The notes beneath the pieces are model-generated. The model saw only the letters and a program-made list of their open reading frames with translations. It ran no database searches and had not been told where the DNA came from. Shown here one piece after another: positions 5,060-55,440 of a stretch of 64,000 nucleotides of DNA. The DNA is from an uncultured bacterium (lineage in GTDB: Bacteria; Eisenbacteria; RBG-16-71-46; CAIMUX01; VGJL01): positions 2,187 to 66,186 of the forward strand of contig CAZNRY010000002.1 in assembly GCA_964575675.1 (NCBI GenBank), given 5' to 3'. The number at the start of each line of letters is the position of its first letter. Position 1 is the first letter of the stretch. The translations under genes were made by a program, and so were the position numbers.

Positions 5060-5077
5060 AGATCGGTCAAGGAGGGA

Positions 5078-14411: not shown

Positions 14412-14451
14412 GATCGGTGGCGCGCGACCTCCAGGCGCCGGGGGGAGATGG

Positions 14452-15420
14452 ATGCCATCGATCGTCCTGCTGAACCTCGGGGGACCGGCAACCCTGGCCG
14501 ATGTCCGCCCGTTCTTGAGAAAACTGTTCTCGGACCCATTCATCATCGAGCTTCCCGGCGGGAGGCTGCTCCGGCCCATCCTGGCCTGGGCCATTTCGAC
14601 CTTTCGGACCAGAAAGGTCAGGGGGTACTACCGGCTGATCGGGGGTGGGTCGCCACTCCGGCGGCTGACGGCCGCCCAGGCGCGCGGCCTGGGCGAGGAG
14701 CTGAGCCGCCGCGGACATCCGGGAGTGCGCGTCGAGGTTGCGATGCGCTATGCGGACCCCGGCGCCGAGGAGGCTGTCCGGAGGCTGCACGCGGCCGGAG
14801 AGAGTACGATCATCGCTCTCCCGCTCTATCCGCATGAGTGCGTTGCGACGACGACATCGAGCCTGGCCGATCTGGAACGGGCGCGCGACCTGCTCGCGCC
14901 GGAGGTCGAGATTCGGGCCGTGCGCTCCTACCATCTTCATCCGGGCTACCTGGCCGCGATGGCCGCGCGGATCCGGGAAGCGATCGATCGGCTGCCGGTC
15001 GATCTGCGACGCGGCGCAGTCCTCCTCTTCAGTGCGCACGGGGTCCCGGAGAGACTCCCGATGCGCGGCGATCCGTACGTGGCGCAGATCAAGGAGACGG
15101 TGGATGCACTGCGCGCGCTCGTTGGCAGCGAGTACGAACACCGGCTGGGCTTTCAGAGCCGAACGGGGCCGGTTCGGTGGGTCGGTCCCGGCACCGACAC
15201 CGTGATCGAGGAACTGCGGGGGCGTCCCGCGGTCGTCGTCGTTCCGGTCTCCTTCGTGTCGGATCACATCGAAACGCTCCATGAGATCGACCTTCTTTTT
15301 GGGGAGAGGGCTCGGAGGGCCGGGATAGGGCTTTTCGTGCGTTGCGAATCTCTGAACGATTCGCCGCTCTTTGTGGGCGCCCTCGCCGACCTGGCGGAAC
15401 CGTTCCTGGGGGGGGCGTAG
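14452..15420 (+). CDS. hemH: Ferrochelatase.
   Basis: MPSIVLLNLGGPATLADVRPFLRKLFSDPFIIELP, FSAHGVP, VVPVSFVSDHIETLHEID. Confidence 0.9.
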   Translation: MPSIVLLNLGGPATLADVRPFLRKLFSDPFIIELPGGRLLRPILAWAISTFRTRKVRGYYRLIGGGSPLRRLTAAQARGLGEELSRRGHPGVRVEVAMRYADPGAEEAVRRLHAAGESTIIALPLYPHECVATTTSSLADLERARDLLAPEVEIRAVRSYHLHPGYLAAMAARIREAIDRLPVDLRRGAVLLFSAHGVPERLPMRGDPYVAQIKETVDALRALVGSEYEHRLGFQSRTGPVRWVGPGTDTVIEELRGRPAVVVVPVSFVSDHIETLHEIDLLFGERARRAGIGLFVRCESLNDSPLFVGALADLAEPFLGGA

Positions 15421-15422
15421 CG

Positions 15423-24345: not shown

Positions 24346-24490
24346 CGATCCTCCGATTGGACAATATCTTGGTGGAGGATACAGGAGAGCAGGCGGAAGC
24401 GCAAAGCGACTTGCCCGCGTTCTCTTCTTTTCGCTAACCTGCTGAAGGCTTTCCGCACTCGACGACTGGCTCTGGGAAGGGAGGTTGGTG

Positions 24491-27209: not shown

Positions 27210-27529
27210 CGGGACCTCCATCGGGAATACCCGGATCGAATGTAACCTCTCCGTCCGGGAGATGCGACCTTGCCGGGCGGGCCCCGGAGATTGAACCTTG
27301 ATCCCGTCCTCGGCCGGCCGTACCCTTCCACCGCAGGGAAGAAACCTGCGCCCGAGGAGTCGGCATGATGGGGAGGTGGCATGGGTAGGAAGCGGACCTG
27401 CCGAACGCGTCGCATGAGGCGCCCATCCTCCGATCCAGACCCTGCCATCGTTGCTCCCCCGCTCCCTTTCTTCCGCCAGCCGATTGATGTTCTCCAGGCT
27501 CGCTTCCGTCGGTCTCACTCCAAACACTG

Positions 27530-28702
27530 ATGAGGGCATCGCCGATGAGACGGATCGCGTTTCTGATTCTCCTGCCGCCCATGCTCTCGATCTCCGTCGC
27601 CCGGGCTCAGCCTCCCCCCGGCGATCCTGGCGCAGGAGGCGTTTCCCCGCCGACCAATGTCGCCGCCGTCGATACGCCGAACGACGGCGGGGGGAGCATC
27701 ACGCTCGCGTGGCGAGGGCCGTCCGGCGCGGCAGGCTATCGCATTGAGCGAGCCGAGGGGCAGGAAGGCTTCGACTCCCTCGACGTCGTGGCGGCGAGGG
27801 CCGCGGGCTATGCGGACGACAAGGCGGAGGACGGCAAGGAGTACCGTTACCGCGTTGTTGCGCTGGGGCCGGCGGGGGGGGAGGCGGCATCTTCCCCCAC
27901 CGGAGCGATCCATAGCCGGCCTCAGTGGTTCAACGGCTACCTGACCGGCGTCGCGATCGCCCTTTTGGTGCTCGCCGGGTTGATCCTCTGGTTTATCCGA
28001 AAGGCGAAACAGGGGATCCAGCTCTACATCCGTCGGATCGCCGGTCTCGAGGCTGTTGACGAGGCCGTGGGACGCGCGACCGAGATGGGGCGCCCCCTCC
28101 TCTACGTCCCGGGGACCGGCTACATCGAGTACATCAGCACCGTCGCCTCGCTCAACCTCTTGGGCGAGGTCGCGAAGAAGACGGCCGAGTATGGGACGTC
28201 GATCCGCGTCCCGCTGCGGGATCCGATCGTTTTCACCGTGTGCCGGGAAGTCGTGAAGGGCGCGTACATGGCGGCGGGCCGACCCGATGCCTTCGAGTCC
28301 GACAGCGTCTTCTTCCTGGTGGAGAACGCGCTGGCCTACGCGGGGGCTGTGAGCGGGATCATCGTCCGCGAGCGGCCGGCGGTGAACTTCTTCATGGGCT
28401 ACTTCGGCGGCGAGTCCCTGATCCTTGCCGAGACCGGCGCCTCGACCGGCGCGATCCAGATCGCGGGGACCGATCAGACGACCCAGCTGCCATTCTTCGT
28501 CGTGGCCTGCGATTACACCCTGATCGGCGAGGAGCTGTACGCGGCCTCCGCCTACATCTCGCGCGAGCCTCTGATGCTGGGGGCATTGAAGGGTCAGGAC
28601 TACAGCAAGTTCATCATCTTCACCCTTCTGATCGTGGGAACGCTGATCTCGCTCGTTGCGGGGATCGACGCGGGTCGGATCCTCTCGACGTCCGGGCGCT
28701 AG
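27530..28702 (+). CDS. Membrane protein with signal peptide, extracytoplasmic FN3-like domain, TM helix, ~220-aa domain of unknown function, and C-terminal TM helix. First gene of a four-gene operon.
   Basis: Signal peptide IAFLILLPPMLSISVARAQ. FN3-like segment ITLAWRGPSGAAGYRIERAEG...EYRYRVVALG. TM segments LTGVAIALLVLAGLILWFI and FIIFTLLIVGTLISLVAGI. No recognised catalytic motif. Confidence 0.6.
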   Translation: MRASPMRRIAFLILLPPMLSISVARAQPPPGDPGAGGVSPPTNVAAVDTPNDGGGSITLAWRGPSGAAGYRIERAEGQEGFDSLDVVAARAAGYADDKAEDGKEYRYRVVALGPAGGEAASSPTGAIHSRPQWFNGYLTGVAIALLVLAGLILWFIRKAKQGIQLYIRRIAGLEAVDEAVGRATEMGRPLLYVPGTGYIEYISTVASLNLLGEVAKKTAEYGTSIRVPLRDPIVFTVCREVVKGAYMAAGRPDAFESDSVFFLVENALAYAGAVSGIIVRERPAVNFFMGYFGGESLILAETGASTGAIQIAGTDQTTQLPFFVVACDYTLIGEELYAASAYISREPLMLGALKGQDYSKFIIFTLLIVGTLISLVAGIDAGRILSTSGR

Positions 28703-28714
28703 GGGAGAACAACG

Positions 28715-29374
28715 ATGCGCGAGAAGCTGCCGCTGGCGCTCCTGATCATCATGGGAATCCTCGGGATCACCGGGCGATTCATCCCTCACCCGGGTGCGGA
28801 GGCGTTCAACGATTACCTGCGCAACAGCGTGCTGCGGATCGTCGGATCGTTCGCCCTGATTCTCGGGCTGGGGAACTTACTCCTGAGCCACACAAACCGG
28901 ATCAAGCGAAAGGCGCAGAACTGGCGGCAATCGTACACGGTGATCATCTCCTTCGTCGTCGTCGCCGTGATCGGCGTCTTCGGTGGTCCGACGGGGGCGG
29001 GGCCGATGCCAACGAAGATCTTCGGCTTCCCCTTCGACTTGACCACGCTCTACAACAAGCTCCTGACGCCGCTGGGGGCGACCTTGTTCGCCCTGCTCGC
29101 TTTCTACATGGCTTCCGCGGCCTACCGCTCATTCCGGGCGAAGACCGCGATGGCGGCGCTGCTGCTGGGGTCGGCCTTCATTGTGATGCTGGGCCAGGTC
29201 CCCGTGGGCGAGCTCATCTCGCCCTACTTCCCGAAGCTGAGCAGCTGGCTGATGCAGGTTCCGAACACCGCGTCGAAGCGCGGAATCGATGTCGGCGTCA
29301 CCCTGGCCGCGACCGGCACGCTGCTAAAGATCCTCACGGGGGTTGAGCGGAGCTGGATGGGAGGTGGCAAGTGA
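28715..29374 (+). CDS. Polytopic membrane protein of unknown function (operon gene 2).
   Basis: 219 aa with ~6 hydrophobic segments; no known motif. Separated by 12 nt from gene 1 and overlapping gene 3 by 4 nt. Confidence 0.55.
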   Translation: MREKLPLALLIIMGILGITGRFIPHPGAEAFNDYLRNSVLRIVGSFALILGLGNLLLSHTNRIKRKAQNWRQSYTVIISFVVVAVIGVFGGPTGAGPMPTKIFGFPFDLTTLYNKLLTPLGATLFALLAFYMASAAYRSFRAKTAMAALLLGSAFIVMLGQVPVGELISPYFPKLSSWLMQVPNTASKRGIDVGVTLAATGTLLKILTGVERSWMGGGK

Positions 29375-30237
29375 ACTTCGATCGGCTGATGCGGATCGAT
29401 CGGAGGATCATCTTCCTCTTCACGGCCATCGTGATCATCGTGCCCCTGCTGATCCCGATGGATCTCCCGATGGGGGTGCAGAAGCCCACACAGCGCTTCT
29501 TCGACACGGTTAACGCCGTCGATCCGAAAGAGCAATGCGTCCTGATCGCAACCGACTACGTGCCCCAGACCGAAGCCGAGAACCAGCCGATGGCGATCGT
29601 GCTCATGCGCCACGCCTTCGCCGCGAGGATCCCGGTTCTGCTCGCCGCTATGTACATCGAGGGGGCGGGGCTCGCGCTGGACGCGATGAACCGCACGATG
29701 GACGAGTTCAACGCCAGGGCCGCTTCGTCGGCGGACAGCATCAAGTACGGACGCGACATTGTCTACCTCGGGTGGCAGCCGCCCCCCATCGTGCCGATTC
29801 TGGGCATGGGGCGCAGCATTACGGCCGTCTATCCGGTCGACTGGTACGGCAGGAACACGCTGGGCTATCCGCTCATGAAGCGGATCAAGAACTACAACGA
29901 TGTCGGGATCGTCTGCTCGATCTCGGGCGGATCGATGCCGCTCTCCTTCGTGCAGTACGCGCAGGCGAAGTACGGGGTGAAGGTCGGGGCGGGTGTGACG
30001 GCCGTGAGCGCCCCAGATTACTACCCGTATTTCGAAACCGGGCAGTTCTCCGGCATGTTGGGCGGGATGAAGGGCGCCGCGGAGTACGAGTACCTAGTGG
30101 AGAAGCACTTCGGCGTGGGCGGACGCAAGCGGGCCACGGAGGGGATGGGGGCGCAATCTACCGCGCACATCATGATCATCGTCTTCGTCATCATCGGCAA
30201 CATCGCCTACTTCGCGGGAAGGAGGAGGGCGAAGTGA
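29371..30237 (+). CDS. Bitopic membrane-anchored protein of unknown function (operon gene 3).
   Basis: 288 aa with an N-terminal TM (IIFLFTAIVIIVPLLI) and a C-terminal TM (IMIIVFVIIGNIAYFAG). The GTG start overlaps gene 2's stop, and its own stop overlaps the gene 4 start. Confidence 0.55.
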   Translation: MNFDRLMRIDRRIIFLFTAIVIIVPLLIPMDLPMGVQKPTQRFFDTVNAVDPKEQCVLIATDYVPQTEAENQPMAIVLMRHAFAARIPVLLAAMYIEGAGLALDAMNRTMDEFNARAASSADSIKYGRDIVYLGWQPPPIVPILGMGRSITAVYPVDWYGRNTLGYPLMKRIKNYNDVGIVCSISGGSMPLSFVQYAQAKYGVKVGAGVTAVSAPDYYPYFETGQFSGMLGGMKGAAEYEYLVEKHFGVGGRKRATEGMGAQSTAHIMIIVFVIIGNIAYFAGRRRAK

Positions 30238-30923
30238 ACATCACACCCGAGGTCCTCTGGATCTGGATCGGGGCGTTCCTGACGCTCTCCGTATTTTCCT
30301 TCCTGTACAAGGACAACCCGTTCTATCGATTCGCCGAACACCTCTTCGTCGGGGCCTCCAACGGCTGGACGGTCGGCTTCTACTGGCACCGGGTCCTGAT
30401 GCCGATCCTTTTCAGGCCACTGGGGCAGGCGTTCAAGACCGCCGGGACGGAGGGGCTCTCGGGCCAGCTCTTCAATCCCTACGCCCCCGCCAACTTCATC
30501 CTGATCGTGCCGTTCTTGATCGGGCTCCTCTACTTCATGAGGTTCGTGCCCAAGGGCGGATGGTTGGTCCGCTTTCCGATCGGCATCTTCATGGGCTACT
30601 ACACCGGTCTGGCGATCCCCGCGGCGTTCGAGGGGGCTCTGTTCCCGCAACTGAAGGGAACGATCGTCACGCGCGCGAGCTTCGCGGATCCGCTCTCCGG
30701 GGTGTGGGCGGTGCTCGTCCTGATCGGGGTGGTCAGCACGCTCGTCTACTTCTTCTTCTCGAAGGAGCACAAGGGGATCGTGAAGCTCGGCGCGAAGACG
30801 GGGATCGTCTATATCATGCTCGGCTTCGGCGCCTCCTTCGGCTTCACGGTGATGGCGCGCGTCTCCCTCGTGATCGGCCGATTCGTCTTCCTGCTAAGGG
30901 ATTGGCTCCACCTGATCACCTGA
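30234..30923 (+). CDS. Polytopic membrane protein of unknown function (operon gene 4).
   Basis: 229 aa with ~6 TM segments; the GTG start overlaps gene 3's stop. Confidence 0.55.
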   Translation: MNITPEVLWIWIGAFLTLSVFSFLYKDNPFYRFAEHLFVGASNGWTVGFYWHRVLMPILFRPLGQAFKTAGTEGLSGQLFNPYAPANFILIVPFLIGLLYFMRFVPKGGWLVRFPIGIFMGYYTGLAIPAAFEGALFPQLKGTIVTRASFADPLSGVWAVLVLIGVVSTLVYFFFSKEHKGIVKLGAKTGIVYIMLGFGASFGFTVMARVSLVIGRFVFLLRDWLHLIT

Positions 30924-30998: not shown

Positions 30999-31334
30999 AT
31001 GAAGAGGATGGTGAGCGAGCCGATCGATCCCGAAGCCGGAAGTTTCGCCGCGGGCGCAATGGCCTCCGGGGTCCCGGGTCTTCCGGCGGCGTTCGTCTGG
31101 CGCGGTTCGCCTCGACAGGTGCTCGCCTGCGAGCGCGCTTGGAAGGGCCTGCGGTCCGAGGCTTCGAGCGGCGAACTCTATCTGAGGCGCCACTACTACG
31201 AACTTGAGATGGACGACGGAGCACGCTGGGTCGTCTATTGCCTGCGCCAATCCTCGAGCGCGAAGGGCGGGCGCCATCGTTGGTACCTCTACACGATTGA
31301 GGATAAGAGCGACGCGAAGGGGGAGGGACGGTGA
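30999..31334 (+). CDS. Small hypothetical protein (111 aa) translationally coupled to the downstream flavoprotein.
   Basis: Non-repetitive composition (YLRRHYYELEMDDGARWVVYCLRQ). Its stop overlaps the GTG start of the next gene (GTGA). Confidence 0.45.
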   Translation: MKRMVSEPIDPEAGSFAAGAMASGVPGLPAAFVWRGSPRQVLACERAWKGLRSEASSGELYLRRHYYELEMDDGARWVVYCLRQSSSAKGGRHRWYLYTIEDKSDAKGEGR

Positions 31335-32800
31335 TCGGAAATCCGATAATCGGCGGGGTGCAGCTTGAGGAGAGTGATGCGTGGGACATCGCCGTCGTTG
31401 GCGCCGGGGCGGCCGGCCTCGCAGCGGCGATCTTCGCCGCGGAGGAGTCGGGTCGACTCGTAGCAGACGGCCGGCCGCGGCCGCGGATCCTCGTTCTCGA
31501 CGGCGCGGAGAAACTCGGGGCGAAGATCCTGGTCTCGGGCGGCGGGCGGTGCAACGTGACGAACGAGGAGATCCGGCCCCAGGATTTCAATGGCAACCAG
31601 CCGTTCATACGCAACGTCCTCGCCGCCTTCGGGGTCGCCGAGACGGTGGGGTGGTTCGAGTCGCTGGGAATCCGCCTCGTGCGCGAGGAGACGGGGAAGA
31701 TGTTCCCCGCCAAGGGCGGCGCGAAGGCGGTTCTCGAAGCCCTGACGAAGGGTTGCCAGGAGGCCGGAACGACGATTCTCACCGAGCATCGTGTTCGGGA
31801 GGTGTCGATCCCACCGTGCGAGGAGGCGTCTGGCGTTGACGCGGACGCCGGTGCAGAGGGAGAAGGGGAGAAGGCGAGCCCCAGGGGGGCAGTGCGTCCG
31901 CCGGCCGGCTTCATTCTCAGGCACGATCGAGGCGCTTTCCGGGCGCGTTGCGTCATTCTCGCCACGGGCGGCCGCTCGATTCCCAAGAGCGGAAGTGACG
32001 GGGAGGGTTGGGAGATCGCAGGGCGCCTCGGTCACTCCGTTACGGCAACCCATCCGGCCCTGGTTCCTCTCCTCTTCGATGCGGGGATGTTTCACGGGAC
32101 GCTCTCTGGCGTGTCCCAGCCCGCCGAGCTCTCGACCTACCTTCGCGGCAAGCGGGTCGACCGGAGGACGGGGAGCCTGCTCTGGACCCACTTTGGAATC
32201 AGCGGGCCGGTTGTTCTCGATGCGAGCCGGCACTGGATCGCGGCCAAGGCCCAGGACCCGGGAGCGGAGTTGCGCTGCAACTTCCTGCCGGGATGGGATG
32301 CGGAACGTCTGGATCGATGGCTGGTCCGGCGCGTGGCGTCGACGTCATGGCGGTCGGTCGTCCGCGTCCTCTCCGACCTGCTCCCGGAACGTGCCGTGCG
32401 CGCGCATCTGGGGGCGGGCGGCATTGCCGCGTCCATGCCGATCGGTGAGGTGAGGCGCGAGGTGAGGCGGCAGCTCGTCGCCGGGCTCGTCGATTTCACC
32501 TTCCCGGTGATCGGGGATCGCGGATGGAACTTCGCCGAGGTGACGGCCGGCGGGGTTCCGCTGAACGAAATCGACTACCGAACAATGGGATCGCGGAAGG
32601 CGCCGAGGCTCTTCCTCGTCGGCGAGATGCTCGACTGCGACGGGCGGATCGGGGGATTCAACTTCCAGTGGGCATGGGCGAGCGGGTATCTCGCGGGGAG
32701 GGCGGCAGCTCGGGATGTTCGACCGCTCCTCGGGCGGCTCCCAGACGCTCCCGCGCCCCAATCGATTGACGGAACCGAATCGCCGCAACAGGATATCTGA
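31331..32800 (+). CDS. BaiN/YhiN (HI0933)-family flavoprotein (NAD(FAD)-utilising dehydrogenase, aminoacetone-oxidase family).
   Basis: FAD fold DIAVVGAGAAGLAAAIFAAE and family blocks ILVSGGGRCNVTN, KMFPAKGGAKAV. Confidence 0.75.
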   Translation: MIGNPIIGGVQLEESDAWDIAVVGAGAAGLAAAIFAAEESGRLVADGRPRPRILVLDGAEKLGAKILVSGGGRCNVTNEEIRPQDFNGNQPFIRNVLAAFGVAETVGWFESLGIRLVREETGKMFPAKGGAKAVLEALTKGCQEAGTTILTEHRVREVSIPPCEEASGVDADAGAEGEGEKASPRGAVRPPAGFILRHDRGAFRARCVILATGGRSIPKSGSDGEGWEIAGRLGHSVTATHPALVPLLFDAGMFHGTLSGVSQPAELSTYLRGKRVDRRTGSLLWTHFGISGPVVLDASRHWIAAKAQDPGAELRCNFLPGWDAERLDRWLVRRVASTSWRSVVRVLSDLLPERAVRAHLGAGGIAASMPIGEVRREVRRQLVAGLVDFTFPVIGDRGWNFAEVTAGGVPLNEIDYRTMGSRKAPRLFLVGEMLDCDGRIGGFNFQWAWASGYLAGRAAARDVRPLLGRLPDAPAPQSIDGTESPQQDI

Positions 32801-32835
32801 TCAGACGATAGGCTCTGGAACCACCTCGGGTTCTT

Positions 32836-32861
32836 GAATACCGTACAAGCGTATGGTATTC
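32836..32861. promoter_or_regulatory. Imperfect palindrome GAATACCGTAC-aagc-GTATGGTATTC overlapping a sigma70-like promoter (TTGAAT-17-TATTCT) directly upstream of dnaE2. It is a candidate SOS/LexA-type operator.
   Basis: 11-bp arms with one mismatch, seen in sequence. -35 TTGAAT at 32834-39 and -10 TATTCT at 32857-62. The GTAC-N4-GTAT core resembles GTAC-type LexA boxes. The position relative to a DNA-damage-inducible polymerase gene supports a regulatory role. Confidence 0.4.
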
Positions 32862-32875
32862 TGGTGATCCGATCC

Positions 32876-35800
32876 ATGGGACTTCAGAGATGCCCGAAAG
32901 GCCCCGGACCGCTTCCCGTTCCCTTGGTCGTCCGGAGCGCATTCTCCCTCGGCCGCGGGGCGAGCGCGAGCGGGGCATTGTTGGCGCGCGCCCGCGGGCA
33001 CGGCTTCGATGCGCTCGCACTGACCGACCGCGACAACTTGTACGGCGCGATCTCCTTCCTCGCGCGCGCGGAGGATGCGGGCCTGCACCCGGTCCTTGGT
33101 GCGGAGGTCACGCCGCGCGCGCCGAATCCCCAGCGTGCGGTTGATCCCCCGTGCGAGGAGGGAATCCGGGGAGGGGGCCGAGGGCCATGCGGTGCACGCG
33201 GGTCGGCTGTTCTGCTGATTCGCGAGCCGGCCGGGTACGCATCCCTCTGTCGGATCTTGACGGCAAGGCGCTTGGCGCCGGGATTCGTCCTCGAGGATGC
33301 CGTTGCGCGGTGGAGTGCGGGGCTCGTCGTTCTCGCGCGCGAAGCGTCGTTGCTCGAACGTCTCCACCCGGCGCTCGCGCCCGGCACCCTCTACGCCGCC
33401 ATCATCCGCCCTGCGCCGAGCATCTCCGACGAGCGGTGCCTACGGGAAGCGGCGCGGCGCCTGGGGCGTCCCCTCCTCGGAACGCTCGACGTCTACTTCG
33501 CAGGAAGAGAGGAGTGGGAGACGCACCGCGTCCTCGCGGCGATCCGGGAGCTCGAGATGGTGACCCGGCTCGATGCCGCGGCGCTTGCGCCGCGCTCGGC
33601 CTATCTTGCAGGCGCGGCTGAGATCTTCGAGCTGTTCGCCGATCAACCGTCGCTGCTCATCGCGGCGCGCGAGTTGGCCTTCTCCTGCCACTTCTCGCGG
33701 GGGGACCTTCCATCCCCTGGAACCCTCTTCCCGAAACTTCCGCTCCCGCCCGGCGAAACGGCCTACGACCGGCTCTACCGAATGACGCAGGAGGGACTGC
33801 GGCGCCGCTATGACCGCGTGACGCGAGAGATCACGCGGCGTCTTGCGTCGGAGCTCGAGCAGATCGACACGATGGGGTTCACGGACTACTTCGTCGTGGT
33901 GGGGGGCATCTGCACGGCGGCGCGCGCGCGGGGGATTCCAACCGTGGGACGCGGCAGCGGGGCGAGCTCGCTCGTCTCCTACCTTCTCGGCATCACGAAT
34001 GTGGACCCGCTTCGCTATCGACTGACCTTCGAACGGTTCTTCCACCGTCTCCGCCGCGACCTGCCGGACCTCGACATCGATCTCTGCTGGCGCCGGCGAG
34101 ACGAGGTGATCCGGCATGTTTATGAGACATACGGCGCCGATCGCGTGGCGATGATCTCGACACACAACCGCTACCAATCGCGCGGCGCGTTTCGTGAAGC
34201 CGGCAAGGCTCTCGGGATGACGGCCGATCAACTCGAGCCCATCGCGCGGGCGATTCCCTCCTTCAGCGATGCGCCTCTGGCCGAGGCTGCCCGCTCGACC
34301 CCCGTCGGACGGCGGTTCGATCTGAGCGAGCCGCCCCTGCCGGAGGTCTTTGCCGCCGGCGACCGGTTGACCGGTCTCCCGCACAGCTTGGGGATCCACT
34401 GCGGGGGAATCGTGATCGGTCCGGGGCCGCTCGATCAGTGGGTGCCGCTCGAGACGGCGACGAAGGGGATCATCGTCACGCAGTACGAGATGCATGCGAT
34501 CGAAGCTGTCGGCCTCGTGAAGATCGATCTGCTCGGCAACCGGGCGATCTCGACGATCGCCGAGACAATCGACGGGATCGCCGGGGCCGGCGATGCGCCG
34601 CCCGATCTGGCGCGGCTGCCCGATCCGGATGCCGCGACGGGCAGGATGCTCGCGCGCGGGGACGCGCTGGGGTGCTTCCAGCTCGAGTCGCCCGGGATGC
34701 GGAATCTCCTGCGGATGCTCGAGACCTCGGATCTGGACGGCACGATCGCGGCCCTGTCACTGATCCGGCCCGGCCCCGCGGGCTCCGGGATGAAGGAGCG
34801 CTTCATCCGCCGGGCGCGCGGTCTCGAGGCGACGAGCTACCTTCATCCCTCGCTCGAACCTCTTCTGGCGACGACCCACGGGATTCTCCTCTACGAGGAG
34901 GACGTGATCTGCGTGGCGAGTGCGATCGGCGGTTTCGACCGCGCCTTGGGAGATCTGCTGCGGCGGGCGATCGCCTCCGCAATGGCGGTGTCTTCGGACC
35001 CGGCGCTTGGGGAGCGCCCCTCGGGCGGCGGGCCGGCGGGTCCCGATGACCCTTGGCGGGGGGGGACGATTCGCGAGATCGAGAACCGCTTCATCGCGTG
35101 CGCGGTGCGAAACGGGGTCGACGCCGACGTGGCGCGGCAGGTGTGGTGCGAGCTGGCCCGGTTCGGCTCGTACGCATTCTGCAAGGCCCACGCTTCGGGC
35201 TACGGCGTTCTCGCCTACCAGACCGCTTACCTGAAGGCGCATCATCCGGGTCCGTTCTACGCGGCCCTTCTGAACAACCACCAAGGGATGTACCCGCTTT
35301 GCGTGCACGTGGCCGACGCGCGCCGGCACGGGCTTCGCTTGGCCCTCCCGTGCGTCCACCGTTCCGCCCCAGAGTGGAGTTGGGAGGGAGGTTCCCTCCG
35401 GTGCGGGCTCGCGCAGGTGAAGGGACTCTCGCGACGCACCCTGGAGGCGATCGCGGCGGAACGCAGGCGCGCCCCCTTCGACGAGATGGACGACTTCATG
35501 TCCCGGACCGGGGCGAGCGCGGCGGAGGCAGTTTCTCTGGTTCTCTGCGGGGCGCTCGACTCGGTCGGTGCGGGGCCCCGCCCGGCGCGACTCTGGCGCC
35601 TGCAATGCCGCGCGCGCGTCTCGGCGCGGGCGCTCGGGCCAACACCGCGGCTGGGCCTGGGCGGTGGGGTGGAGCAGGGCGGAGAGCCCCCGTGGCGCGA
35701 GTTCGAGCTTGAGGAGCGCGTCGCGCACGAGATGGAAACGCTGGACGTCGCGTTGAGCGCGCACCCGGTTGCGCTCGTCGTGCGACGGCTTGCCCGCGCC

Positions 35801-36148
35801 GGGCGCGCCGTCGGAAGGACCCCGGCCGGGCAGCTCCAACGAGAAGGTCCGGCGTCGGTTCTGGGGTGGGCCGCCGCGGCGCGGCGCGTGCGAACGAAAC
35901 GCGGGGAGTCGATGCTCTTCCTGACGCTGGAAGACGAGACGGGCCTGGCCGAGTGCACGCTCTTCCCGAGCGTGTACGCGCGGTACGGACACCTCGTCCG
36001 GGCGGGGGGCGTGCTGCGTGCAACGGGGAAGGTCGAGGCGCCCTACGGAGCCCCGACCCTCAACGCGGCGCGCATCGAGTGCATCGATGCTGGATTTGGC
36101 AGGGCGGCAGATGCGCCGCCCGAGACTAGCGAAGCCGCAGGAGCTTGA
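32876..36148 (+). CDS. dnaE2: Error-prone DNA polymerase DnaE2/ImuC-like (Pol III alpha family, with PHP, polymerase core and OB domains but no tau/beta-binding C-terminal tail).
   Basis: PHP motif ALALTDRDNLYG. Polymerase core blocks FQLESPGMRNLL, LIRPGP, YAFCKAHASGYGVLAYQTAYLKAHHP. A C-terminal OB fold is present. ~1090 aa, the typical DnaE2 length. The start is set at ATG 32876; the track start (TTG 32834) lies inside the promoter/palindrome. Confidence 0.8.
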   Translation: MGLQRCPKGPGPLPVPLVVRSAFSLGRGASASGALLARARGHGFDALALTDRDNLYGAISFLARAEDAGLHPVLGAEVTPRAPNPQRAVDPPCEEGIRGGGRGPCGARGSAVLLIREPAGYASLCRILTARRLAPGFVLEDAVARWSAGLVVLAREASLLERLHPALAPGTLYAAIIRPAPSISDERCLREAARRLGRPLLGTLDVYFAGREEWETHRVLAAIRELEMVTRLDAAALAPRSAYLAGAAEIFELFADQPSLLIAARELAFSCHFSRGDLPSPGTLFPKLPLPPGETAYDRLYRMTQEGLRRRYDRVTREITRRLASELEQIDTMGFTDYFVVVGGICTAARARGIPTVGRGSGASSLVSYLLGITNVDPLRYRLTFERFFHRLRRDLPDLDIDLCWRRRDEVIRHVYETYGADRVAMISTHNRYQSRGAFREAGKALGMTADQLEPIARAIPSFSDAPLAEAARSTPVGRRFDLSEPPLPEVFAAGDRLTGLPHSLGIHCGGIVIGPGPLDQWVPLETATKGIIVTQYEMHAIEAVGLVKIDLLGNRAISTIAETIDGIAGAGDAPPDLARLPDPDAATGRMLARGDALGCFQLESPGMRNLLRMLETSDLDGTIAALSLIRPGPAGSGMKERFIRRARGLEATSYLHPSLEPLLATTHGILLYEEDVICVASAIGGFDRALGDLLRRAIASAMAVSSDPALGERPSGGGPAGPDDPWRGGTIREIENRFIACAVRNGVDADVARQVWCELARFGSYAFCKAHASGYGVLAYQTAYLKAHHPGPFYAALLNNHQGMYPLCVHVADARRHGLRLALPCVHRSAPEWSWEGGSLRCGLAQVKGLSRRTLEAIAAERRRAPFDEMDDFMSRTGASAAEAVSLVLCGALDSVGAGPRPARLWRLQCRARVSARALGPTPRLGLGGGVEQGGEPPWREFELEERVAHEMETLDVALSAHPVALVVRRLARAGRAVGRTPAGQLQREGPASVLGWAAAARRVRTKRGESMLFLTLEDETGLAECTLFPSVYARYGHLVRAGGVLRATGKVEAPYGAPTLNAARIECIDAGFGRAADAPPETSEAAGA

Positions 36149-39100
36149 CGCTTCTTTCGCCGGCGGCGGATCTGAGGCGCGCCCAGTAAACGCCCGCGGG
36201 GGCGGGGCGTCCATCCTCGTCGGTGCCGTCCCAGACCTGCTGTCCCGCGCCGCGGGCGCGCCTGCGGGACGGGAGGAGCGTGCGAACGAGGCGGCCCGAG
36301 ATATCGTAGACCGCTAGATCGCTGTCGCCCGCGCGGGGTAGAGACCAAGAAAGCCCCACGGTCCACGAGAACGGATTGTCGCTCGCCCGGAGGTCGAGGG
36401 CGAGTCTCGGCCCCGAGCGAACTCCCGTCCAGGGGCCGGCGAACTCACCGCCGGCATCCTCGATCCAGTAGAGATAGACGGTTCCCGCGGCCGCGGATGG
36501 GTCGCGGAAGCGGTAGTCGAGCCCGCCAGGGTCGTGGGGAAGAACCGGATCGCGCGAGACGAGAATCGCGTCTGCGCCCGGACGCGGCGAACCGTCGAGA
36601 ACCGTCGGCGCCTCCCTCCAGAGGCGATACGCGCCGCCGGCCCGGTCACTCGGCACGGACCAGCGGAGTTCGAGGGCATCCGGCAGCTCAAAGATCACCC
36701 AGCTCGCGACGGCGACCGGCGTGTAGTCGCCCTCGTAGTGCCAGCTCACCGTTCTGACCCGCACGTCCCAGCTGCGCTGATCCCTGCTGTCGGCGAACGC
36801 GTAACGGATTCGTCCCGCGTCGGCAGCCAGGTTGCCCTGGAGTGTGGCTATCTTCCCCCCAAGAATGCTGACGCTGTAGGGGGCGCCGATCCGGTTGGCG
36901 CGGGCATCGAAGCGCTGCGCGATCACGCGCGCGGAGTCGGCGGAGGTATCCCAGTACGTCACGACGAATCGTCCATCCGGGGCCATCGCCACGCGCGGGT
37001 ACTTCATCCCGGCCGATCCCCCTCCGAGCTGGAAAAACGTTGGTTCATCCGATCGGCCGCCGCCGCTCTTCGCGCTGGGAAGAACGACGAGCAGGCCAAC
37101 GACGCCGCCCCCTGTGTATGGCTCTTCGTCCCAGACGACGACGTAGCGATCGGCCTGGGACGCGACATCGGGATTCGATTGGACGACCGAGCCTCCTTCC
37201 TCAGGGATGCTGATCGGGATGTTTGGCCCGATCTTCGTTCCCGTGGGCCCGATCCTCTGGGCGTAAACGTCAAAGTTGCCCATCCGGTCGTCGAGCCAGG
37301 CGATGACGGTCTCTCCGCCTTCCCCGGAGGAGATGGCGGGGCTGATCTGGGTGGCGCCCGCGTAAGCGCTATCCGCGATGCGGATCGTGTCGCTGTCGGC
37401 CGAGCCATCGACCAGAAAGCGCTGCGCGTAGACGTCCCCGGCGCTGAGCAACGTGCAGGTATCCCACCAGGCCAAGTAGAAGCCGCCGTCCCTCGTGGCC
37501 GCGAAGGCGGGTTGCCCCTGGATGCCCCCGCCGCAGGCGGAGGAGACGAGCGTGTTGCCGCCCACCGGCACGCCGGTCGGATCGTAGATCTGAACCATGA
37601 CCCTCTGGCCGCCGGCGAGAAGCGCCGTCCAGGCTGCGACGAGGGAACCATTCATGGTCGCCCCGAGCGCGGGTCTGTTTCGGATCAAGTCGCGCATGTT
37701 GTCCGCCGGCGCACTGGATGCCCCGCCGCTGATGTCACTGATCCGGAAGGACCCGCCCGCGGGGCGCCCTTCCGCGTCGAGATACGCCCCATAGATCCCC
37801 ATCGTCCCCGAACGGAAGTCCTCCCAAACGACCGCGCCGCGATGATCGGGTAACAAAACGACATCGGGGAATGCCTGGGTCGATGTCCCATCCTTCGGAT
37901 CGAGCGGGGTCGGTGCGCTGAGCGGGTGGCCTTCTGCATCCGCCGTGAGTTGGAAGAGCAACTCCCAACCCTCGCGGGCATCTGACCAGACAAGGCGCGC
38001 GGGCGTTGTGGAGCCGGGTAACAGCGCGAGGTGCCGCGGCGTGAGAGTCTGCCCCGGCGGAGGCGTCGGGTCGTCGACAACGACAATCGACCCGGCCGCG
38101 GTCGAGGGGAGAACCACCTTCCTGGCATGGAAGCGTGCGCTTTGTGCAGGCCCGGCCGTCCAGACGACGAGAACGGAAGTTCCGTCGATCGCAAGCAGCT
38201 CGGGGCCGCGCGGCGTGACGGTCTCCTCTTCGCTCGATATCAAGAAGGATGGCGCCGCGGGGTTCAGATCCGCGTCGAGAAGACGACCGGCGAGGCTGAC
38301 CTCGCCGGAGAGACCTCGTGTCCAGGCGACGAAATAGCCCCCCGTCACACGAACGATTGCCGGCTCCTTCTGGATGACGAGAGGGTCGGATTCGACGATC
38401 CTCGCCTCTGCGATCGCATGGCCGTCCCGATCGAACGCGCGTACTGAGACGCGCGCTGGATCCTGCGAGTCACCCGACCAGGCGACGACCCAACCTGCGG
38501 CCGAAGCGGCCACACGGGGATCGCTCTGCACGTCCTCACCGCCGGGGTCGAGAGAGAAGTTCGAGAGAACCGGTTCGAGGGAAGCGGTGAGGACCTGGCC
38601 CCGCGCCTTCCTGAGCGGGGAGTCTCCTTCCGTCCAGACAATCAGGGCACGATCGCCGGAGACCGCGATGTGGGGAGTCCTCTTGGTGCTGTAGGGACCT
38701 TCCTCGGTCACGACGATCGGGCCAGCGATGATCCCGTCTTGATCGACCAGGGCGGCCCGAACCTCCGGGTGGCCCTCCCGCGAATCGACCCATGTCAGGA
38801 TCGATCGACCGTCGGCAAGCGAGGCGAGGAAGGGCTCGGAGACTTGCTCCGCGTTGACGTCGAAAGAGAAAAGCCCGTAGCCGTCGGTGACCGGCGAGGC
38901 CGGGCCGAGCGGCTCATCCTGAGAGTCGAAGGACCGCACGAAAATCGAACCATACCCCGTGCAGAAGTCGATCCAGGCGGCGGTCCAGGAAGCGTCGGAG
39001 TGAACGGTCGCGGTTCCGTCGCGCTGGTACTCTTGCCCGACCGTCTCCTCGTGGACTCTCCATTCTTCCGGCGGATTCGAAACGGCCGAGGTAGCGAGAA

Positions 39101-39149
39101 TGAACGAGGCCAAGAAGGCAAGGCAGAGGATCGGGCTGAGCGCTCTCAC
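36126..39149 (-). CDS. Large secreted protein (1007 aa) with signal peptide and a T9SS-type (Por_Secre_tail/FlgD-Ig-like) C-terminal sorting domain.
   Basis: N-terminal signal peptide MRALSPILCLAFLASFILATSAVS. C-terminal DLAVYDISGRLVRTL...VWDGTDEDGRPAPAGVYWARLRSAAGERSVKLLRLR matches the T9SS type-A CTD pattern. It converges on and overlaps the dnaE2 3' end by 23 nt. Confidence 0.7.
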   Translation of the reverse strand: MRALSPILCLAFLASFILATSAVSNPPEEWRVHEETVGQEYQRDGTATVHSDASWTAAWIDFCTGYGSIFVRSFDSQDEPLGPASPVTDGYGLFSFDVNAEQVSEPFLASLADGRSILTWVDSREGHPEVRAALVDQDGIIAGPIVVTEEGPYSTKRTPHIAVSGDRALIVWTEGDSPLRKARGQVLTASLEPVLSNFSLDPGGEDVQSDPRVAASAAGWVVAWSGDSQDPARVSVRAFDRDGHAIAEARIVESDPLVIQKEPAIVRVTGGYFVAWTRGLSGEVSLAGRLLDADLNPAAPSFLISSEEETVTPRGPELLAIDGTSVLVVWTAGPAQSARFHARKVVLPSTAAGSIVVVDDPTPPPGQTLTPRHLALLPGSTTPARLVWSDAREGWELLFQLTADAEGHPLSAPTPLDPKDGTSTQAFPDVVLLPDHRGAVVWEDFRSGTMGIYGAYLDAEGRPAGGSFRISDISGGASSAPADNMRDLIRNRPALGATMNGSLVAAWTALLAGGQRVMVQIYDPTGVPVGGNTLVSSACGGGIQGQPAFAATRDGGFYLAWWDTCTLLSAGDVYAQRFLVDGSADSDTIRIADSAYAGATQISPAISSGEGGETVIAWLDDRMGNFDVYAQRIGPTGTKIGPNIPISIPEEGGSVVQSNPDVASQADRYVVVWDEEPYTGGGVVGLLVVLPSAKSGGGRSDEPTFFQLGGGSAGMKYPRVAMAPDGRFVVTYWDTSADSARVIAQRFDARANRIGAPYSVSILGGKIATLQGNLAADAGRIRYAFADSRDQRSWDVRVRTVSWHYEGDYTPVAVASWVIFELPDALELRWSVPSDRAGGAYRLWREAPTVLDGSPRPGADAILVSRDPVLPHDPGGLDYRFRDPSAAAGTVYLYWIEDAGGEFAGPWTGVRSGPRLALDLRASDNPFSWTVGLSWSLPRAGDSDLAVYDISGRLVRTLLPSRRRARGAGQQVWDGTDEDGRPAPAGVYWARLRSAAGERSVKLLRLR

Positions 39150-44292: not shown

Positions 44293-44493
44293 ATGCTCTC
44301 GAAGGAACTCTTGGAAATCCTCGTTTGTCCGCGATGCAAGGGAGATCTCGAGTATGACACGGAGCAACAGCGGCTCCGGTGCCATCCCTGCCGCTTGGCC
44401 TACCCGATTCAAGATGACATCCCGATCATGTTGATCGAAGAGGCAGAACCGTTCGACCCGCCGCCCTCCGCCGACTCGAAGGGAGGGTCTTGA
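44293..44493 (+). CDS. Trm112/YcaR-family (UPF0434) small zinc-ribbon protein.
   Basis: 66 aa, [14 protein letters not shown]...[20 protein letters not shown]. Confidence 0.8.
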
Positions 44494-44494
44494 T

Positions 44495-55330: not shown

Positions 55331-55359
55331 TTGACTGAATACATGGCTCTACATATACT
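55331..55359 (+). promoter_or_regulatory. Strong sigma70 promoter TTGACT-17-TATACT.
   Basis: Near-consensus hexamers with an exact 17-nt spacer, in an AT-rich island within a high-GC intergenic region, ~80 nt upstream of ATG 55441. Confidence 0.55.
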
Positions 55360-55440
55360 TATCAGAGGTGTTCCGCACATCTCCGCCGCTTGCTCATGCC
55401 GTGCGGCGCCATGGACTTATCGCGCCGAGGAGGGCCACCG

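What the first reader, a model, noticed from the sequence alone, without database searches (positions are those of the whole stretch)
32834..36148. Orphan error-prone polymerase dnaE2 without imuA/imuB, fronted by a promoter-overlapping palindrome
DnaE2/ImuC normally sits in a LexA-controlled imuA-imuB-dnaE2 cassette. Here it follows a flavoprotein gene and converges on a secreted-protein gene, with no imuB-like (Y-family) gene in the window. The palindrome GAATACCGTACaagcGTATGGTATTC overlaps a TTGAAT-17-TATTCT promoter ~20 nt upstream of the likely start. This is where an SOS repressor would bind. Its GTAC-N4-GTAT core matches no E. coli or Bacillus LexA box and may define this lineage's SOS box.
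Basis: partly seen in the sequence, partly recalled or inferred. Interest (0 to 1): 0.55.

Follow-up and report, generated by a model that had tools for sequence, protein, structure and literature searches.

The report
SOS-controlled accessory DNA polymerase gene
This is a damage-inducible "second" DNA polymerase III gene of an uncultured Eisenbacteria-like bacterium, separated from its usual partner genes, and the palindrome in front of it is a worn-down copy of the ordinary Bacillus-type LexA (SOS repressor) site, not a new kind of site.

Summary
A 1090-aa C-family polymerase gene (probable start ATG 32876, not TTG 32834) follows a flavoprotein gene. It converges on a secreted-protein gene. 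No imuA, imuB, lexA or Y-family polymerase gene lies in the window. The palindrome at 32836-32861 is real and unique.

The polymerase is neither canonical DnaE1 nor ImuA/ImuB-type DnaE2: it fails both NCBIfam cut-offs. It nests among DnaEs (43-49% identity) encoded in lexA-orf84-polY-dnaE cassettes, one at the syntenic locus of another Eisenbacteria genome. This fits the published ImuA/ImuB-independent "DnaE2B" kind.

The central 14 bp, CGTACaagcGTATG, sit between -35 TTGAAT and -10 TATTCT. The same slot holds CGAAC-N4-GTTCG or close variants in every orthologous dnaE promoter and in the lexA and polY promoters of relatives. lexA itself carries the canonical Bacillus-type box. So the site is a degenerate canonical LexA box, not a new lineage-specific motif.

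The outer arms are the promoter hexamers. They also form part of a sense-strand RNA hairpin found only where the flavoprotein gene lies upstream.

Not shown: LexA binding at this three-substitution site, and a co-resident replicative DnaE1. Modest interest; new member of a known kind.

The parts
32876..36148 (+). dnaE-family polymerase gene (1090 aa) of the cassette-derived, ImuA/ImuB-independent 'DnaE2B-like' clade. Palm aspartates are intact (PDLDIDL, KIDLLG). PHP metal ligands are lost (HxH becomes VxR, D becomes R, H becomes R).
   Evidence: Pfam domains. NCBIfam scores 615 bits on DnaE1 and 562 on DnaE2, both below cut-off; calibrated against reference proteins. NJ tree. Alignment columns. 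Orthologue N-termini.
32842..32855 (.). Putative LexA operator CGTACaagcGTATG, a degenerate Bacillus-type CGAAC-N4-GTTCG box with substitutions at dyad positions 3, 12 and 13.
   Evidence: It is positionally homologous to boxes in 7 dnaE, 3 lexA and 2 polY promoters of relatives. A PWM built from 9 other sites ranks it first of 63,987 positions in the window.
32834..32839 (+). -35 hexamer TTGAAT. It also forms the outer left arm of the palindrome.
   Evidence: It aligns with TTGACA, TTGACG, TTGAGT and TTGAAT in orthologous promoters.
32854..32862 (+). Extended -10 element TGgTATTCT. The TG is formed by the last two bases of the operator's right half-site.
   Evidence: GGTA is invariant in all 10 aligned promoters. 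GTATGGTAT occurs once per locus, only upstream of dnaE.
32836..32861 (.). It is the operator plus the partly self-complementary promoter hexamers.
32826..32872 (+). Extended sense-strand RNA hairpin (about 20 pairs including G-U pairs). It has no U tract. Its 3' arm covers the SD-like GGTGATCC.
   Evidence: Sense strand -24.5 kcal/mol, z -4.3. Antisense strand -13.9 kcal/mol. An equivalent hairpin with different outer-stem sequence occurs in L095. It is absent in four orthologues that lack the upstream flavoprotein gene.
31331..32800 (+). HI0933-like (aminoacetone-oxidase family) FAD protein gene. It is probably a separate transcription unit inserted upstream of dnaE in this sub-clade.
   Evidence: It is present in the window, the P0001 and P0002 contigs, L092 and L095/L096, and absent in L001, L002, L005 and L094.
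30999..31334 (+). DUF6504 small beta protein (111 aa), remotely ImuB-C-like. Its gene overlaps the flavoprotein gene by 4 nt. A functional link to dnaE is unproven.
   Evidence: Pfam 54 bits. hhalign against ImuB C-termini gives P 2e-5, probability 53%. Sub-threshold DUF6504 hits fall on 3 of 8 ImuB C-termini. AF2 model is all-beta, pLDDT 80. Relatives elsewhere are not near TLS genes.

Best explanation
The gene encodes an accessory, error-prone-type C-family DNA polymerase of the ImuA/ImuB-independent kind ('DnaE2B-like').

Its ancestor was the last gene of a LexA-repressed cassette: lexA, orf84 (a small ImuB-C-like beta protein), polY and dnaE. In this Eisenbacteria sub-lineage the cassette has broken into separate units. 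lexA-orf84 stays next to lipA, polY lies a few kb away, and dnaE is elsewhere. Each unit keeps its own promoter with a LexA box wedged between the -35 and -10 elements.

In the window the promoter is TTGAAT-17-TGgTATTCT and the operator is CGTACaagcGTATG (32842-32855). LexA bound there would occlude RNA polymerase. RecA-stimulated LexA cleavage after DNA damage would release transcription of a short-leader dnaE mRNA.

The site is a weakened copy of the canonical box, with 7 of 10 dyad bases retained. One of its substitutions creates an extended -10 TG. Repression is therefore probably partial or leaky.

On the sense RNA it also forms part of a stem-loop that probably ends or insulates transcription coming from the inserted DUF6504-flavoprotein unit upstream.

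Shown: clade membership, synteny, positional conservation of the box, the canonical box at lexA in the lineage, and hairpin energetics. Inferred: LexA binding at this particular site, damage induction, a co-resident replicative DnaE1, and the hairpin's function.
For: 1. Classification.
- The window protein scores 615 bits on NF004226 and 562 on NF004225.
- This matches the DnaEs encoded in lexA-PolY cassettes: L085 scores 601/567 and L089 632/585.
- A true DnaE2A scores 1244 on NF004225, and true DnaE1s score 1292-1478 on NF004226.
- In the NJ tree the window clade nests among cassette-linked DnaEs, apart from DnaE1 and DnaE2A.

2. Orthology with a cassette gene.
- L085 (Eisenbacteria GCA_018831195.1) carries lexA, an 84-aa ORF, PolY and DnaE.
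- The same downstream neighbours follow as in the window: FlgD_ig protein, NUDIX, Pribosyltran.
- The cassette recurs in L097, L098 and L008 (all four genes) and in part in L006 (polY-dnaE on a short contig).

3. Operator.
- A gap-free alignment of 10 promoters has invariant columns C..AC....GT..GGTA.
- lexA promoters: L085 TTGACG-tc-CGAACgcctGTTCG-g-TAAGTT; L086 CGAACgcgcGTTCG (same contig as the L005 dnaE); L183 CGAACgggcGTTCG.
- polY promoters: CGAACgatcGTACG-gTATTCT and CGAACgtgcGTACG-gTATCCT.
- dnaE promoters: CGAACaaccGTTCG, CGAACgcgcGTTTG, CGAACacatGTTTG, CGAACacatGTATG, CATACacttGTTCG, CAAACactcGTATG.
- All substitutions fall at the symmetric dyad positions 2/13 and 3/12.
- The degenerate pattern hits only these promoters in about 220 kb of loci, plus one coding site in the window.
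- A leave-one-out PWM ranks the window site first of 63,987 positions.

4. The polymerase looks catalytically competent but lacks PHP metal ligands.

5. Literature.
- ImuA/ImuB-less DnaE2 systems with PolY and/or a standalone ImuB-C, often with lexA, are described in PMC6511836 and PMC12926913.
- GAAC-N4-GTTC is the Firmicutes/Actinobacteria LexA motif, with variants in Cyanobacteria and Chloroflexi (PMC4951493).
Against: - The window site differs from the canonical box at 3 of 10 dyad positions. In other LexA systems single dyad substitutions can abolish binding (PMC4951493). Canonical-box matches with up to 2 mismatches occur at chance frequency in this GC-rich window: 64 found against 60 expected. 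The call therefore rests on positional homology, not on motif strength.
- No lexA, recA or polY from the window's own genome could be examined.
- No co-resident DnaE1 was demonstrated for any Eisenbacteria genome. The only 'Eisenbacteria' DnaE1 found (L039) is 80-87% identical to Chloroflexota proteins and is probably mis-binned.
- The 'DnaE2B' label was not checked against reference sequences from the paper.
- The generic sigma-70 scanner does not call the promoter.
Confidence: 0.7

Rival explanations
1. The palindrome works mainly as an RNA stem-loop. It would act as a U-tract-less terminator or insulator for the DUF6504-flavoprotein unit, or as a translational mask of dnaE in read-through transcripts. 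The LexA box would then be a decaying relic that no longer binds LexA in this organism.
For: - The sense-strand hairpin 32826-32872 folds at -24.5 kcal/mol (z -4.3). The antisense strand reaches only -13.9, because several pairs are G-U.
- L095 has an equivalent hairpin (-24.2 kcal/mol, z -3.85) with a different outer-stem sequence.
- Hairpins occur only in the loci where the flavoprotein gene lies upstream. The other four orthologues give z about 0.
- The 3' arm covers SD-like GGTGATCC in the window and the ATG in L095.
- The window box carries three dyad substitutions.
Against: - There is no U tract, and the terminator scan finds nothing. Rfam finds no match.
- Only two independent loci support the hairpin.
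- The inner stem is the operator itself, which is conserved in loci that have no hairpin.
- Substitutions are confined to the symmetric positions 2/13 and 3/12, while C1, A4, C5, G10, T11 and G14 are invariant. This argues for continued protein-binding constraint.
- The two roles are not mutually exclusive.
Confidence: 0.2
2. The gene is the sole, replicative DnaE of this lineage. The upstream element would be an ordinary housekeeping promoter, and the absence of imuA/imuB would be trivial.
For: - The neighbourhood is housekeeping and conserved: accA lies 7 kb downstream, near purine and heme genes.
- The DnaE1 model scores slightly higher than the DnaE2 model.
- PGAP-style names call it 'DNA polymerase III subunit alpha'.
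- No second DnaE was found for any Eisenbacteria genome.
Against: - The DnaE1 score is 615 bits against a cut-off of 1002. Genuine DnaE1s, including those of distant phyla, score about 1300-1480.
- The orthologue at the syntenic locus in L085 is the fourth gene of a lexA-orf84-polY-dnaE operon that carries LexA boxes.
- The clade is nested among cassette-linked DnaEs.
- PHP ligands are lost.
- The genome scan used query-specific peptide patterns and could easily miss a paralogue of about 30% identity.
Confidence: 0.07
3. This is the first reader's version: GTAC-N4-GTAT, or the full 26-bp palindrome, is a novel lineage-specific SOS box recognised by a LexA with altered specificity.
For: - GTAC and GTAT half-sites recur in the TLS-gene promoters of the clade: polY in L085 and L183, and dnaE in L001, L002 and the window.
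- Cyanobacterial LexA boxes are GTAC-type (own knowledge; PMC4951493 cites the relation).
Against: - lexA's own promoter in three genomes of the clade carries a perfect CGAAC-N4-GTTCG. One of these (L086) is on the same contig as a dnaE orthologue.
- Most half-sites at the dnaE and polY promoters are CGAAC.
- The outer arms of the 26-bp palindrome are not conserved outside the flavoprotein-linked sub-clade.
- No other copy occurs in the window.
Confidence: 0.04

Closest known systems
ImuA/ImuB-independent DnaE2 systems: 'DnaE2B' with PolY and/or a standalone ImuB-C plus RecA (Timinskas & Venclovas 2019, PMC6511836; NAR 2026, PMC12926913)
   Same: - An accessory C-family polymerase in genomes or loci without imuA/imuB.
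[quoted passage not shown]
- PGAP-type annotation names it plain 'DNA polymerase III subunit alpha'.
   Different: - The phylum is Eisenbacteria-like, which is not in the papers' complete-genome sets.
- The papers report the [ImuB-C]-PolY-DnaE2 composition only from Actinobacteria.
- In the window lineage the cassette is split, so dnaE stands alone with its own operator.
- Placement on the published DnaE2 tree was not verified.
Canonical imuA-imuB-dnaE2 (ImuC) SOS mutagenesis cassette, e.g. Caulobacter, Pseudomonas, Mycobacterium. In M. tuberculosis dnaE2 is also unlinked from imuA'-imuB (own knowledge).
   Same: - A LexA-controlled, damage-inducible second DnaE that works with a Y-family-derived partner.
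- A split arrangement in which each unit has its own LexA box has a precedent.
   Different: - It fails the NF004225 cut-off (562 against 939 bits), at about 30-32% identity to DnaE2A.
- There is no ImuA. The partner PolY in relatives retains its catalytic residues, unlike ImuB.
Firmicutes/Actinobacteria-type LexA box (Cheo box) CGAAC-N4-GTTCG
   Same: - The same 14-bp dyad geometry.
- It overlaps the core promoter.
- A perfect consensus is present at lexA in the same lineage.
   Different: - The window copy has A3T, T12A and C13T.
- No binding data exist for this phylum.
Geobacter sulfurreducens lexA-imuB-C-polY operon (cited in PMC6511836)
   Same: The order is lexA, then a small ImuB-C-like gene, then an active PolY, and the operon is SOS-inducible.
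   Different: - The Eisenbacteria cassettes add a DnaE as the fourth gene.
- Homology of orf84 to ImuB-C is only weakly supported here: Pfam DUF6504 E 0.008-0.024 and hhalign P 0.002-0.06.

Membership tests
DnaE2A / ImuC (ImuA-ImuB-DnaE2 mutasome polymerase) | Scores above the NCBIfam 'error-prone DNA polymerase' NF004225 cut-off (939 bits) | tested here: not met
   The window protein scores 561.7 bits. A genuine imuA-imuB-linked DnaE2 (Manganitrophus plasmid) scores 1244.
DnaE2A / ImuC (ImuA-ImuB-DnaE2 mutasome polymerase) | Encoded with, or co-occurring with, imuA and imuB | tested here: not met
   Neither gene is in the 64-kb window or in any related locus, by Pfam and tblastn. The rest of the genome could not be searched.
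DnaE1 (replicative Pol III alpha) | Scores above a DnaE1 equivalog cut-off (e.g. NF004226, 1002 bits) | tested here: not met
   The window protein scores 614.8 bits. DnaE1 controls score 1292-1478.
DnaE1 (replicative Pol III alpha) | It is the essential or only DnaE of the genome, or pairs with PolC | not testable with these tools
   No complete genome of the lineage could be searched. L039, the only 'Eisenbacteria' DnaE1 found, looks mis-binned.
DnaE2B-like (ImuA/ImuB-independent DnaE2; PMC12926913) | Associated with a Y-family polymerase and/or a standalone ImuB-C, often with lexA | tested here: met
   This is met in relatives, not in the window itself. L085, L097, L098 and L008 carry lexA/orf84/polY/dnaE. 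In the close lineage lexA-orf84 and polY are unlinked from dnaE (L086, L183).
DnaE2B-like (ImuA/ImuB-independent DnaE2; PMC12926913) | Groups with reference DnaE2B sequences on the DnaE2 tree | tested here: inconclusive
   The NJ tree places the clade next to the Desulfosarcina lexA-iPolY-dnaE protein, apart from DnaE2A and DnaE1.
LexA operator, GAAC-N4-GTTC type | A 14-bp dyad matching CGAAC-N4-GTTCG | tested here: inconclusive
   The window site matches 7 of 10 dyad bases. It ranks first in the window with a PWM from the relatives' sites. Canonical-box matches with up to 2 mismatches occur at chance level.
LexA operator, GAAC-N4-GTTC type | The same motif lies upstream of lexA and other SOS genes in the lineage | tested here: met
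   lexA: L085, L086 and L183. polY: L085 and L183. dnaE: seven orthologues. The window's own genome is not available.
LexA operator, GAAC-N4-GTTC type | Bound by LexA, with the target gene induced by DNA damage | not testable with these tools
   This needs EMSA or footprinting and expression assays.
Intrinsic (Rho-independent) terminator | A GC-rich stem-loop followed by a U tract | tested here: not met
   A strong stem-loop is present, but there is no T run and the terminator scan finds nothing.
ImuB-C domain family (for the DUF6504 gene 30999-31334) | Detectable homology to the C-terminal beta domain of ImuB | tested here: inconclusive
   hhalign gives P 2e-5, probability 53%, end-to-end in register. 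Pfam DUF6504 gives sub-threshold hits on 3 of 8 ImuB C-termini. The AF2 model is all-beta with no PDB neighbour. The AFDB library was unavailable.

The most novel reading that the evidence does not exclude
In the flavoprotein-linked sub-clade the operator is embedded in a selected sense-strand RNA hairpin. In read-through transcripts from the upstream DUF6504-flavoprotein unit, the hairpin masks the dnaE ribosome-binding site or start codon. Mutagenic polymerase would then be made only from the LexA-gated internal promoter, whose short-leader mRNA lacks the 5' arm. One 47-nt element would thus combine operator, promoter, insulator and translational mask. In addition, or alternatively, the ImuB-C-like DUF6504 protein and its translationally coupled flavoprotein could be new accessory partners of this DnaE.
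Probability: 0.15. Interest if true: 0.5.

Novelty: new member of a known kind. Interest (0 to 1): 0.3.

Why it matters
It extends the recently recognised ImuA/ImuB-independent DnaE2 systems (lexA, an ImuB-C-like protein, PolY, DnaE) to an uncultured FCB-group phylum. It also gives the first sequence-level view of an SOS box for Eisenbacteria, which turns out to be the widespread Gram-positive type.

The locus shows how a mutagenesis cassette can fragment while each piece keeps its LexA-gated promoter. Operator strength is graded: perfect at lexA and weakened at the polymerase genes. For annotation, it shows that "DNA polymerase III subunit alpha" calls scoring about 600 bits on both the DnaE1 and DnaE2 NCBIfam models are likely accessory polymerases.

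None of this overturns current understanding.

Tried and rejected
- **L039 as evidence for a co-resident DnaE1.** L039 is labelled as an 'Eisenbacteria' DnaE1. Rejected, because it is 80-87% identical to Chloroflexota DnaE1s and is probably a mis-binned contig.
- **Genome and metagenome scans with the DnaE query.** They returned only a few close relatives, then unrelated DnaE1s of Patescibacteria and Chloroflexota picked up by shared peptide patterns. They are not a census of paralogues.
- **The canonical LexA box as a statistical signal in the window.** Matches with up to 2 mismatches occur at chance level. The perfect box at 25971 lies inside a coding region.
- **DUF6504 as the missing ImuB-like partner.** Remote ImuB-C similarity is plausible. 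Against a link: no LexA box lies upstream of the gene, it is absent next to dnaE in four orthologous loci, and its relatives in three other lineages sit in unrelated contexts. Kept only as a lead.
- **Fold search.** The DUF6504 model found nothing in the PDB, and the AFDB library was unavailable.
- **PDB sequence search with DUF6504.** Only noise.
- **Rfam on the intergenic region.** No match.
- **Generic promoter and terminator scan.** Nothing called.
- **Literature search for DUF6504.** No papers.
- **DNA for the two closest loci (P0001, P0002).** Not retrievable.

Full report
**1. What is in the sequence**

The window is 66% G+C. Its closest protein relatives carry "Candidatus Eisenbacteria" labels.

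Its first codon, TTG 32834, is only the mechanical ORF start and coincides with a -35 hexamer. The in-frame ATG at 32876 gives an N-terminus (MGLQRCPKGPGPLPVPLVVRSAFSLGRG...) that matches the orthologues' N-termini. The gene is therefore 32876-36148, 1090 aa.

Pfam finds the PHP, DNA_pol3_alpha, finger, HHH_6 and OB-fold domains.

- Upstream on the same strand lie a DUF6754-led four-gene membrane operon (27488-30923), a 111-aa DUF6504 gene (30999-31334) and an HI0933-like flavoprotein gene (31331-32800), which overlaps the DUF6504 gene by 4 nt.
- Downstream lie a convergent FlgD_ig secreted protein (36126-39149), then an M23 peptidase gene and accA.

Pfam scans of all plausible genes found no imuA, imuB, lexA, recA or Y-family polymerase in the 64 kb. 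tblastn with LexA, PolY, ImuA, ImuB and orf84 queries also found none.

The palindrome GAATACCGTAC-aagc-GTATGGTATTC (32836-32861) has 11-nt arms with one mismatch. It is unique in the window.

**2. What kind of DnaE it is**

NCBIfam gives 615 bits on the DnaE1 equivalog NF004226 (cut-off 1002) and 562 bits on the error-prone model NF004225 (cut-off 939). Only the superfamily model passes.

I calibrated these scores on reference proteins:

| Protein | NF004226 (DnaE1) | NF004225 (error-prone) |
|---|---|---|
| Manganitrophus plasmid DnaE2, bona fide imuA-imuB-linked | not the best hit | 1244 |
| Azospirillum DnaE1 | 1478 | not the best hit |
| Chloroflexota-like DnaE1 (L039) | 1292 | not the best hit |
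| L085 DnaE, behind lexA and a Y-family polymerase | 601 | 567 |
| Desulfosarcina plasmid DnaE (L089), behind lexA and a Y-family polymerase | 632 | 585 |
| Window DnaE | 615 | 562 |

The two cassette-encoded DnaEs show the same profile as the window protein.

An NJ tree places the window protein and its 65-79% identical orthologues inside a clade whose other members are cassette-encoded. These are L085, L097 and L098, at 43-49% identity. The Desulfosarcina lexA-iPolY-dnaE protein is the next branch out, and both DnaE2A and DnaE1 lie well apart.

The palm aspartates are intact (PDLDIDL, KIDLLG). Four of the first five PHP metal ligands are replaced (HxH becomes VxR, D becomes R, H becomes R).

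The literature describes this kind. A sizeable fraction of DnaE2s ("DnaE2B", "DnaE2X") occur in genomes without imuA or imuB. They are associated with active or inactive PolYs, a standalone ImuB-C and RecA, often with lexA (PMC6511836, PMC12926913). The gene is therefore an accessory DnaE, but not an ImuC. For this kind, the absence of imuA/imuB is normal.

**3. Where the partners went**

L085 comes from a more distant Eisenbacteria genome (GCA_018831195.1). There the DnaE (47% identical) is the fourth gene of lipA / lexA / 84-aa ORF / PolY / dnaE. The same neighbours follow as in the window: a convergent FlgD_ig protein, NUDIX and a phosphoribosyltransferase. This is the orthologous locus. 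The same lexA-orf84-polY-dnaE order recurs in L097, L098 and L008, and polY-dnaE in the short contig L006.

The PolYs keep the catalytic DxD and DE motifs.

In the window's closer relatives the cassette is broken up:

- In GCA_034679345.1, lexA-orf84 remains next to lipA (L086), while dnaE lies about 40 kb away on the same contig (L005).
- In L183, four unrelated genes separate lexA-orf84 from polY.
- dnaE follows the DUF6754 operon directly in L001 and L094, a HAD hydrolase gene in L002, and the DUF6504-flavoprotein pair in the window, the P0001 and P0002 contigs, L092 and L095/L096.

**4. The palindrome core is a LexA-type operator**

The promoters align without gaps.

| Promoter | -35 | spacer | box | -10 region |
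|---|---|---|---|---|
| lexA, L085 | TTGACG | tc | CGAACgcctGTTCG | g TAAGTT |
| lexA, L086 | TTGACG | gca | CGAACgcgcGTTCG | g TAATCT |
| lexA, L183 | TTGACA | tcc | CGAACgggcGTTCG | g TAGCCT |
| polY operon, L085 | – | – | CGAACgatcGTACG | g TATTCT |
| polY, L183 | – | – | CGAACgtgcGTACG | g TATCCT |
| dnaE, L084 | – | – | CGAACaaccGTTCG | g TATCAT |
| dnaE, L095/L096 | TTGAAT | ag | CGAACgcgcGTTTG | g TATTCT |
| dnaE, L094 | – | – | CGAACacatGTTTG | not given |
| dnaE, L001 | – | – | CGAACacatGTATG | not given |
| dnaE, L005 | – | – | CATACacttGTTCG | not given |
| dnaE, L002 | – | – | CAAACactcGTATG | not given |
| dnaE, window | TTGAAT | ac | CGTACaagcGTATG | g TATTCT |

Several points support the reading as an operator:

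- The invariant columns are C1, A4, C5, G10, T11 and G14 of the box, plus GGTA. Every substitution falls at the symmetric positions 2/13 and 3/12, which looks like constraint rather than random decay.
- The degenerate pattern C[AG][AT]AC-N4-GT[AT][CT]G hits only these promoters in about 220 kb of loci. The single exception lies in a coding region of the window at 25971.
- A PWM built from the nine other sites ranks the window site first of 63,987 positions.
- GAAC-N4-GTTC is the established LexA motif of Firmicutes and Actinobacteria, with variants in Cyanobacteria and Chloroflexi (PMC4951493).

The suggestion that GTAC-N4-GTAT defines a new box is not supported. The lineage's lexA genes carry the canonical Bacillus-type box, and the window site is a three-substitution derivative.

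Two caveats apply. By motif score alone the site would be unremarkable, since canonical-box matches with up to 2 mismatches occur at chance frequency (64 found against 60 expected). Single dyad substitutions can also abolish LexA binding in other systems. Binding at this copy is therefore inferred, and repression is probably weak. The C13T change creates a TGn extended -10 (TGgTATTCT), which would raise promoter strength while weakening the operator. That last point is my inference.

**5. The outer arms and a hairpin**

The outer palindrome arms (GAATA / TATTC) are simply the -35 and -10 hexamers. They are not palindromic in most orthologues.

On the sense RNA, 32826-32872 folds into a stem-loop of about 20 pairs at -24.5 kcal/mol (z -4.3). 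The antisense strand reaches only -13.9, because several pairs are G-U.

L095 shares the upstream flavoprotein gene. It has an equivalent hairpin (-24.2 kcal/mol, z -3.85) with a different outer-stem sequence. The four orthologues without the flavoprotein gene have no hairpin (z about 0).

The element has no U tract, no terminator call and no Rfam match. Its 3' arm covers an SD-like GGTGATCC in the window and the ATG in L095.

I read this as a terminator or insulator acquired together with the upstream insertion. It is a lead that rests on two loci, and it is compatible with the operator role.

**6. The DUF6504 gene**

The 111-aa protein is a clear DUF6504 member at 54 bits. Its AlphaFold2 model is all-beta (pLDDT 80) with no PDB neighbour.

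Evidence for a remote relationship to the ImuB C-terminal domain:

- hhalign against eight ImuB C-termini gives P 2e-5 (probability 53%), aligned end to end.
- The Pfam DUF6504 model gives sub-threshold hits exactly on the C-termini of 3 of 8 real ImuBs.
- It also gives sub-threshold hits on 3 of 5 orf84 proteins.

DUF6504, orf84 and ImuB-C are thus plausibly one remote superfamily. orf84 occupies the position that imuB-C holds in the Geobacter lexA-imuB-C-polY operon (PMC6511836).

Evidence against a functional link between this DUF6504 gene and dnaE:

- No LexA box lies upstream of it.
- It is absent beside dnaE in four orthologous loci.
- Its relatives in three other lineages sit in unrelated contexts.

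orf84, which is LexA-controlled in the same lineage, is the better candidate partner.

**7. What remains unshown**

I could not show a replicative DnaE1 in any Eisenbacteria genome. The only candidate, L039, is 80-87% identical to Chloroflexota proteins and is probably mis-binned. Accessory status therefore rests on HMM calibration, phylogeny and the operon context of the orthologue.

lexA, recA and polY of the window's own genome were not available. LexA binding and damage induction need experiments.

**8. Verdict**

This is a new member of a known kind. It is an ImuA/ImuB-independent, SOS-type accessory DnaE from a fragmented lexA-orf84-polY-dnaE cassette. It is fronted by a degenerate canonical LexA box that overlaps its promoter. 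In this sub-clade the box is embedded in a hairpin. Interest is modest (0.3).

Noticed in passing
window 30999-31334 (+), overlapping 31331-32800: A DUF6504 small all-beta protein is translationally coupled (4-nt overlap) to an HI0933-like flavoprotein. It shows remote, sub-threshold similarity to the ImuB C-terminal domain and to the 84-aa ORF that follows lexA in related cassettes. The gene pair is conserved upstream of dnaE only in one sub-clade.
   Followed up: partly
window 32826-32872 (+); L095 3434-3482: A sense-strand-specific extended RNA hairpin (about -24 kcal/mol) encloses the operator and promoter. It occurs only where the flavoprotein gene lies upstream. The outer-stem sequences differ between the two loci. 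There is no U tract.
   Followed up: partly
window 25971-25984: A perfect canonical LexA box, CGAACGCGGGTTCG, lies inside the coding region of the transketolase-like gene (24446-26887). It is probably a chance match in a GC-rich genome.
   Followed up: no
L183 10001-15695; L086 10001-11713: In close relatives lexA-orf84 sits after lipA. In L183 polY lies 3.4 kb downstream, behind four inserted cell-envelope genes, with its own CGAAC-N4-GTACG box. In L086 an unannotated 242-aa ORF follows orf84 instead.
   Followed up: partly
window 27488-30923 (+): A four-gene membrane-protein operon led by a DUF6754 protein is strictly conserved upstream of dnaE across the clade. Its function is unknown.
   Followed up: no
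window 8065-9690 (+): One open frame carries TetR_N and TetR_C domains followed by HemD (uroporphyrinogen-III synthase), inside a heme-biosynthesis cluster (hemC, hemB, hemE, hemN-like, hemH, hemY-like; about 5045-16811). This is either a fusion or two genes in the same frame.
   Followed up: no
L039 (DASQFM010000312.1): A contig binned as 'Candidatus Eisenbacteria' encodes a DnaE1 that is 80-87% identical to Chloroflexota (Limnocylindria-type) DnaE1s. It is probably a mis-binned contig.
   Followed up: yes
L084 4999-7842 and 8001-11495: In the nearest outgroup (52% identity) the orphan dnaE carries a perfect LexA box. It follows a DEAD/Hrq1-like helicase with an MZB domain and an RNase H-like/PolB-exo protein. 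This may be another repair-gene association.
   Followed up: no
window 44435-48607, 36126-39149, 55339-57249: Several large secreted proteins end in FlgD_ig-type C-terminal domains. One is a C25 gingipain-like peptidase. This is typical of FCB-group type-IX-secretion-like cargo.
   Followed up: no
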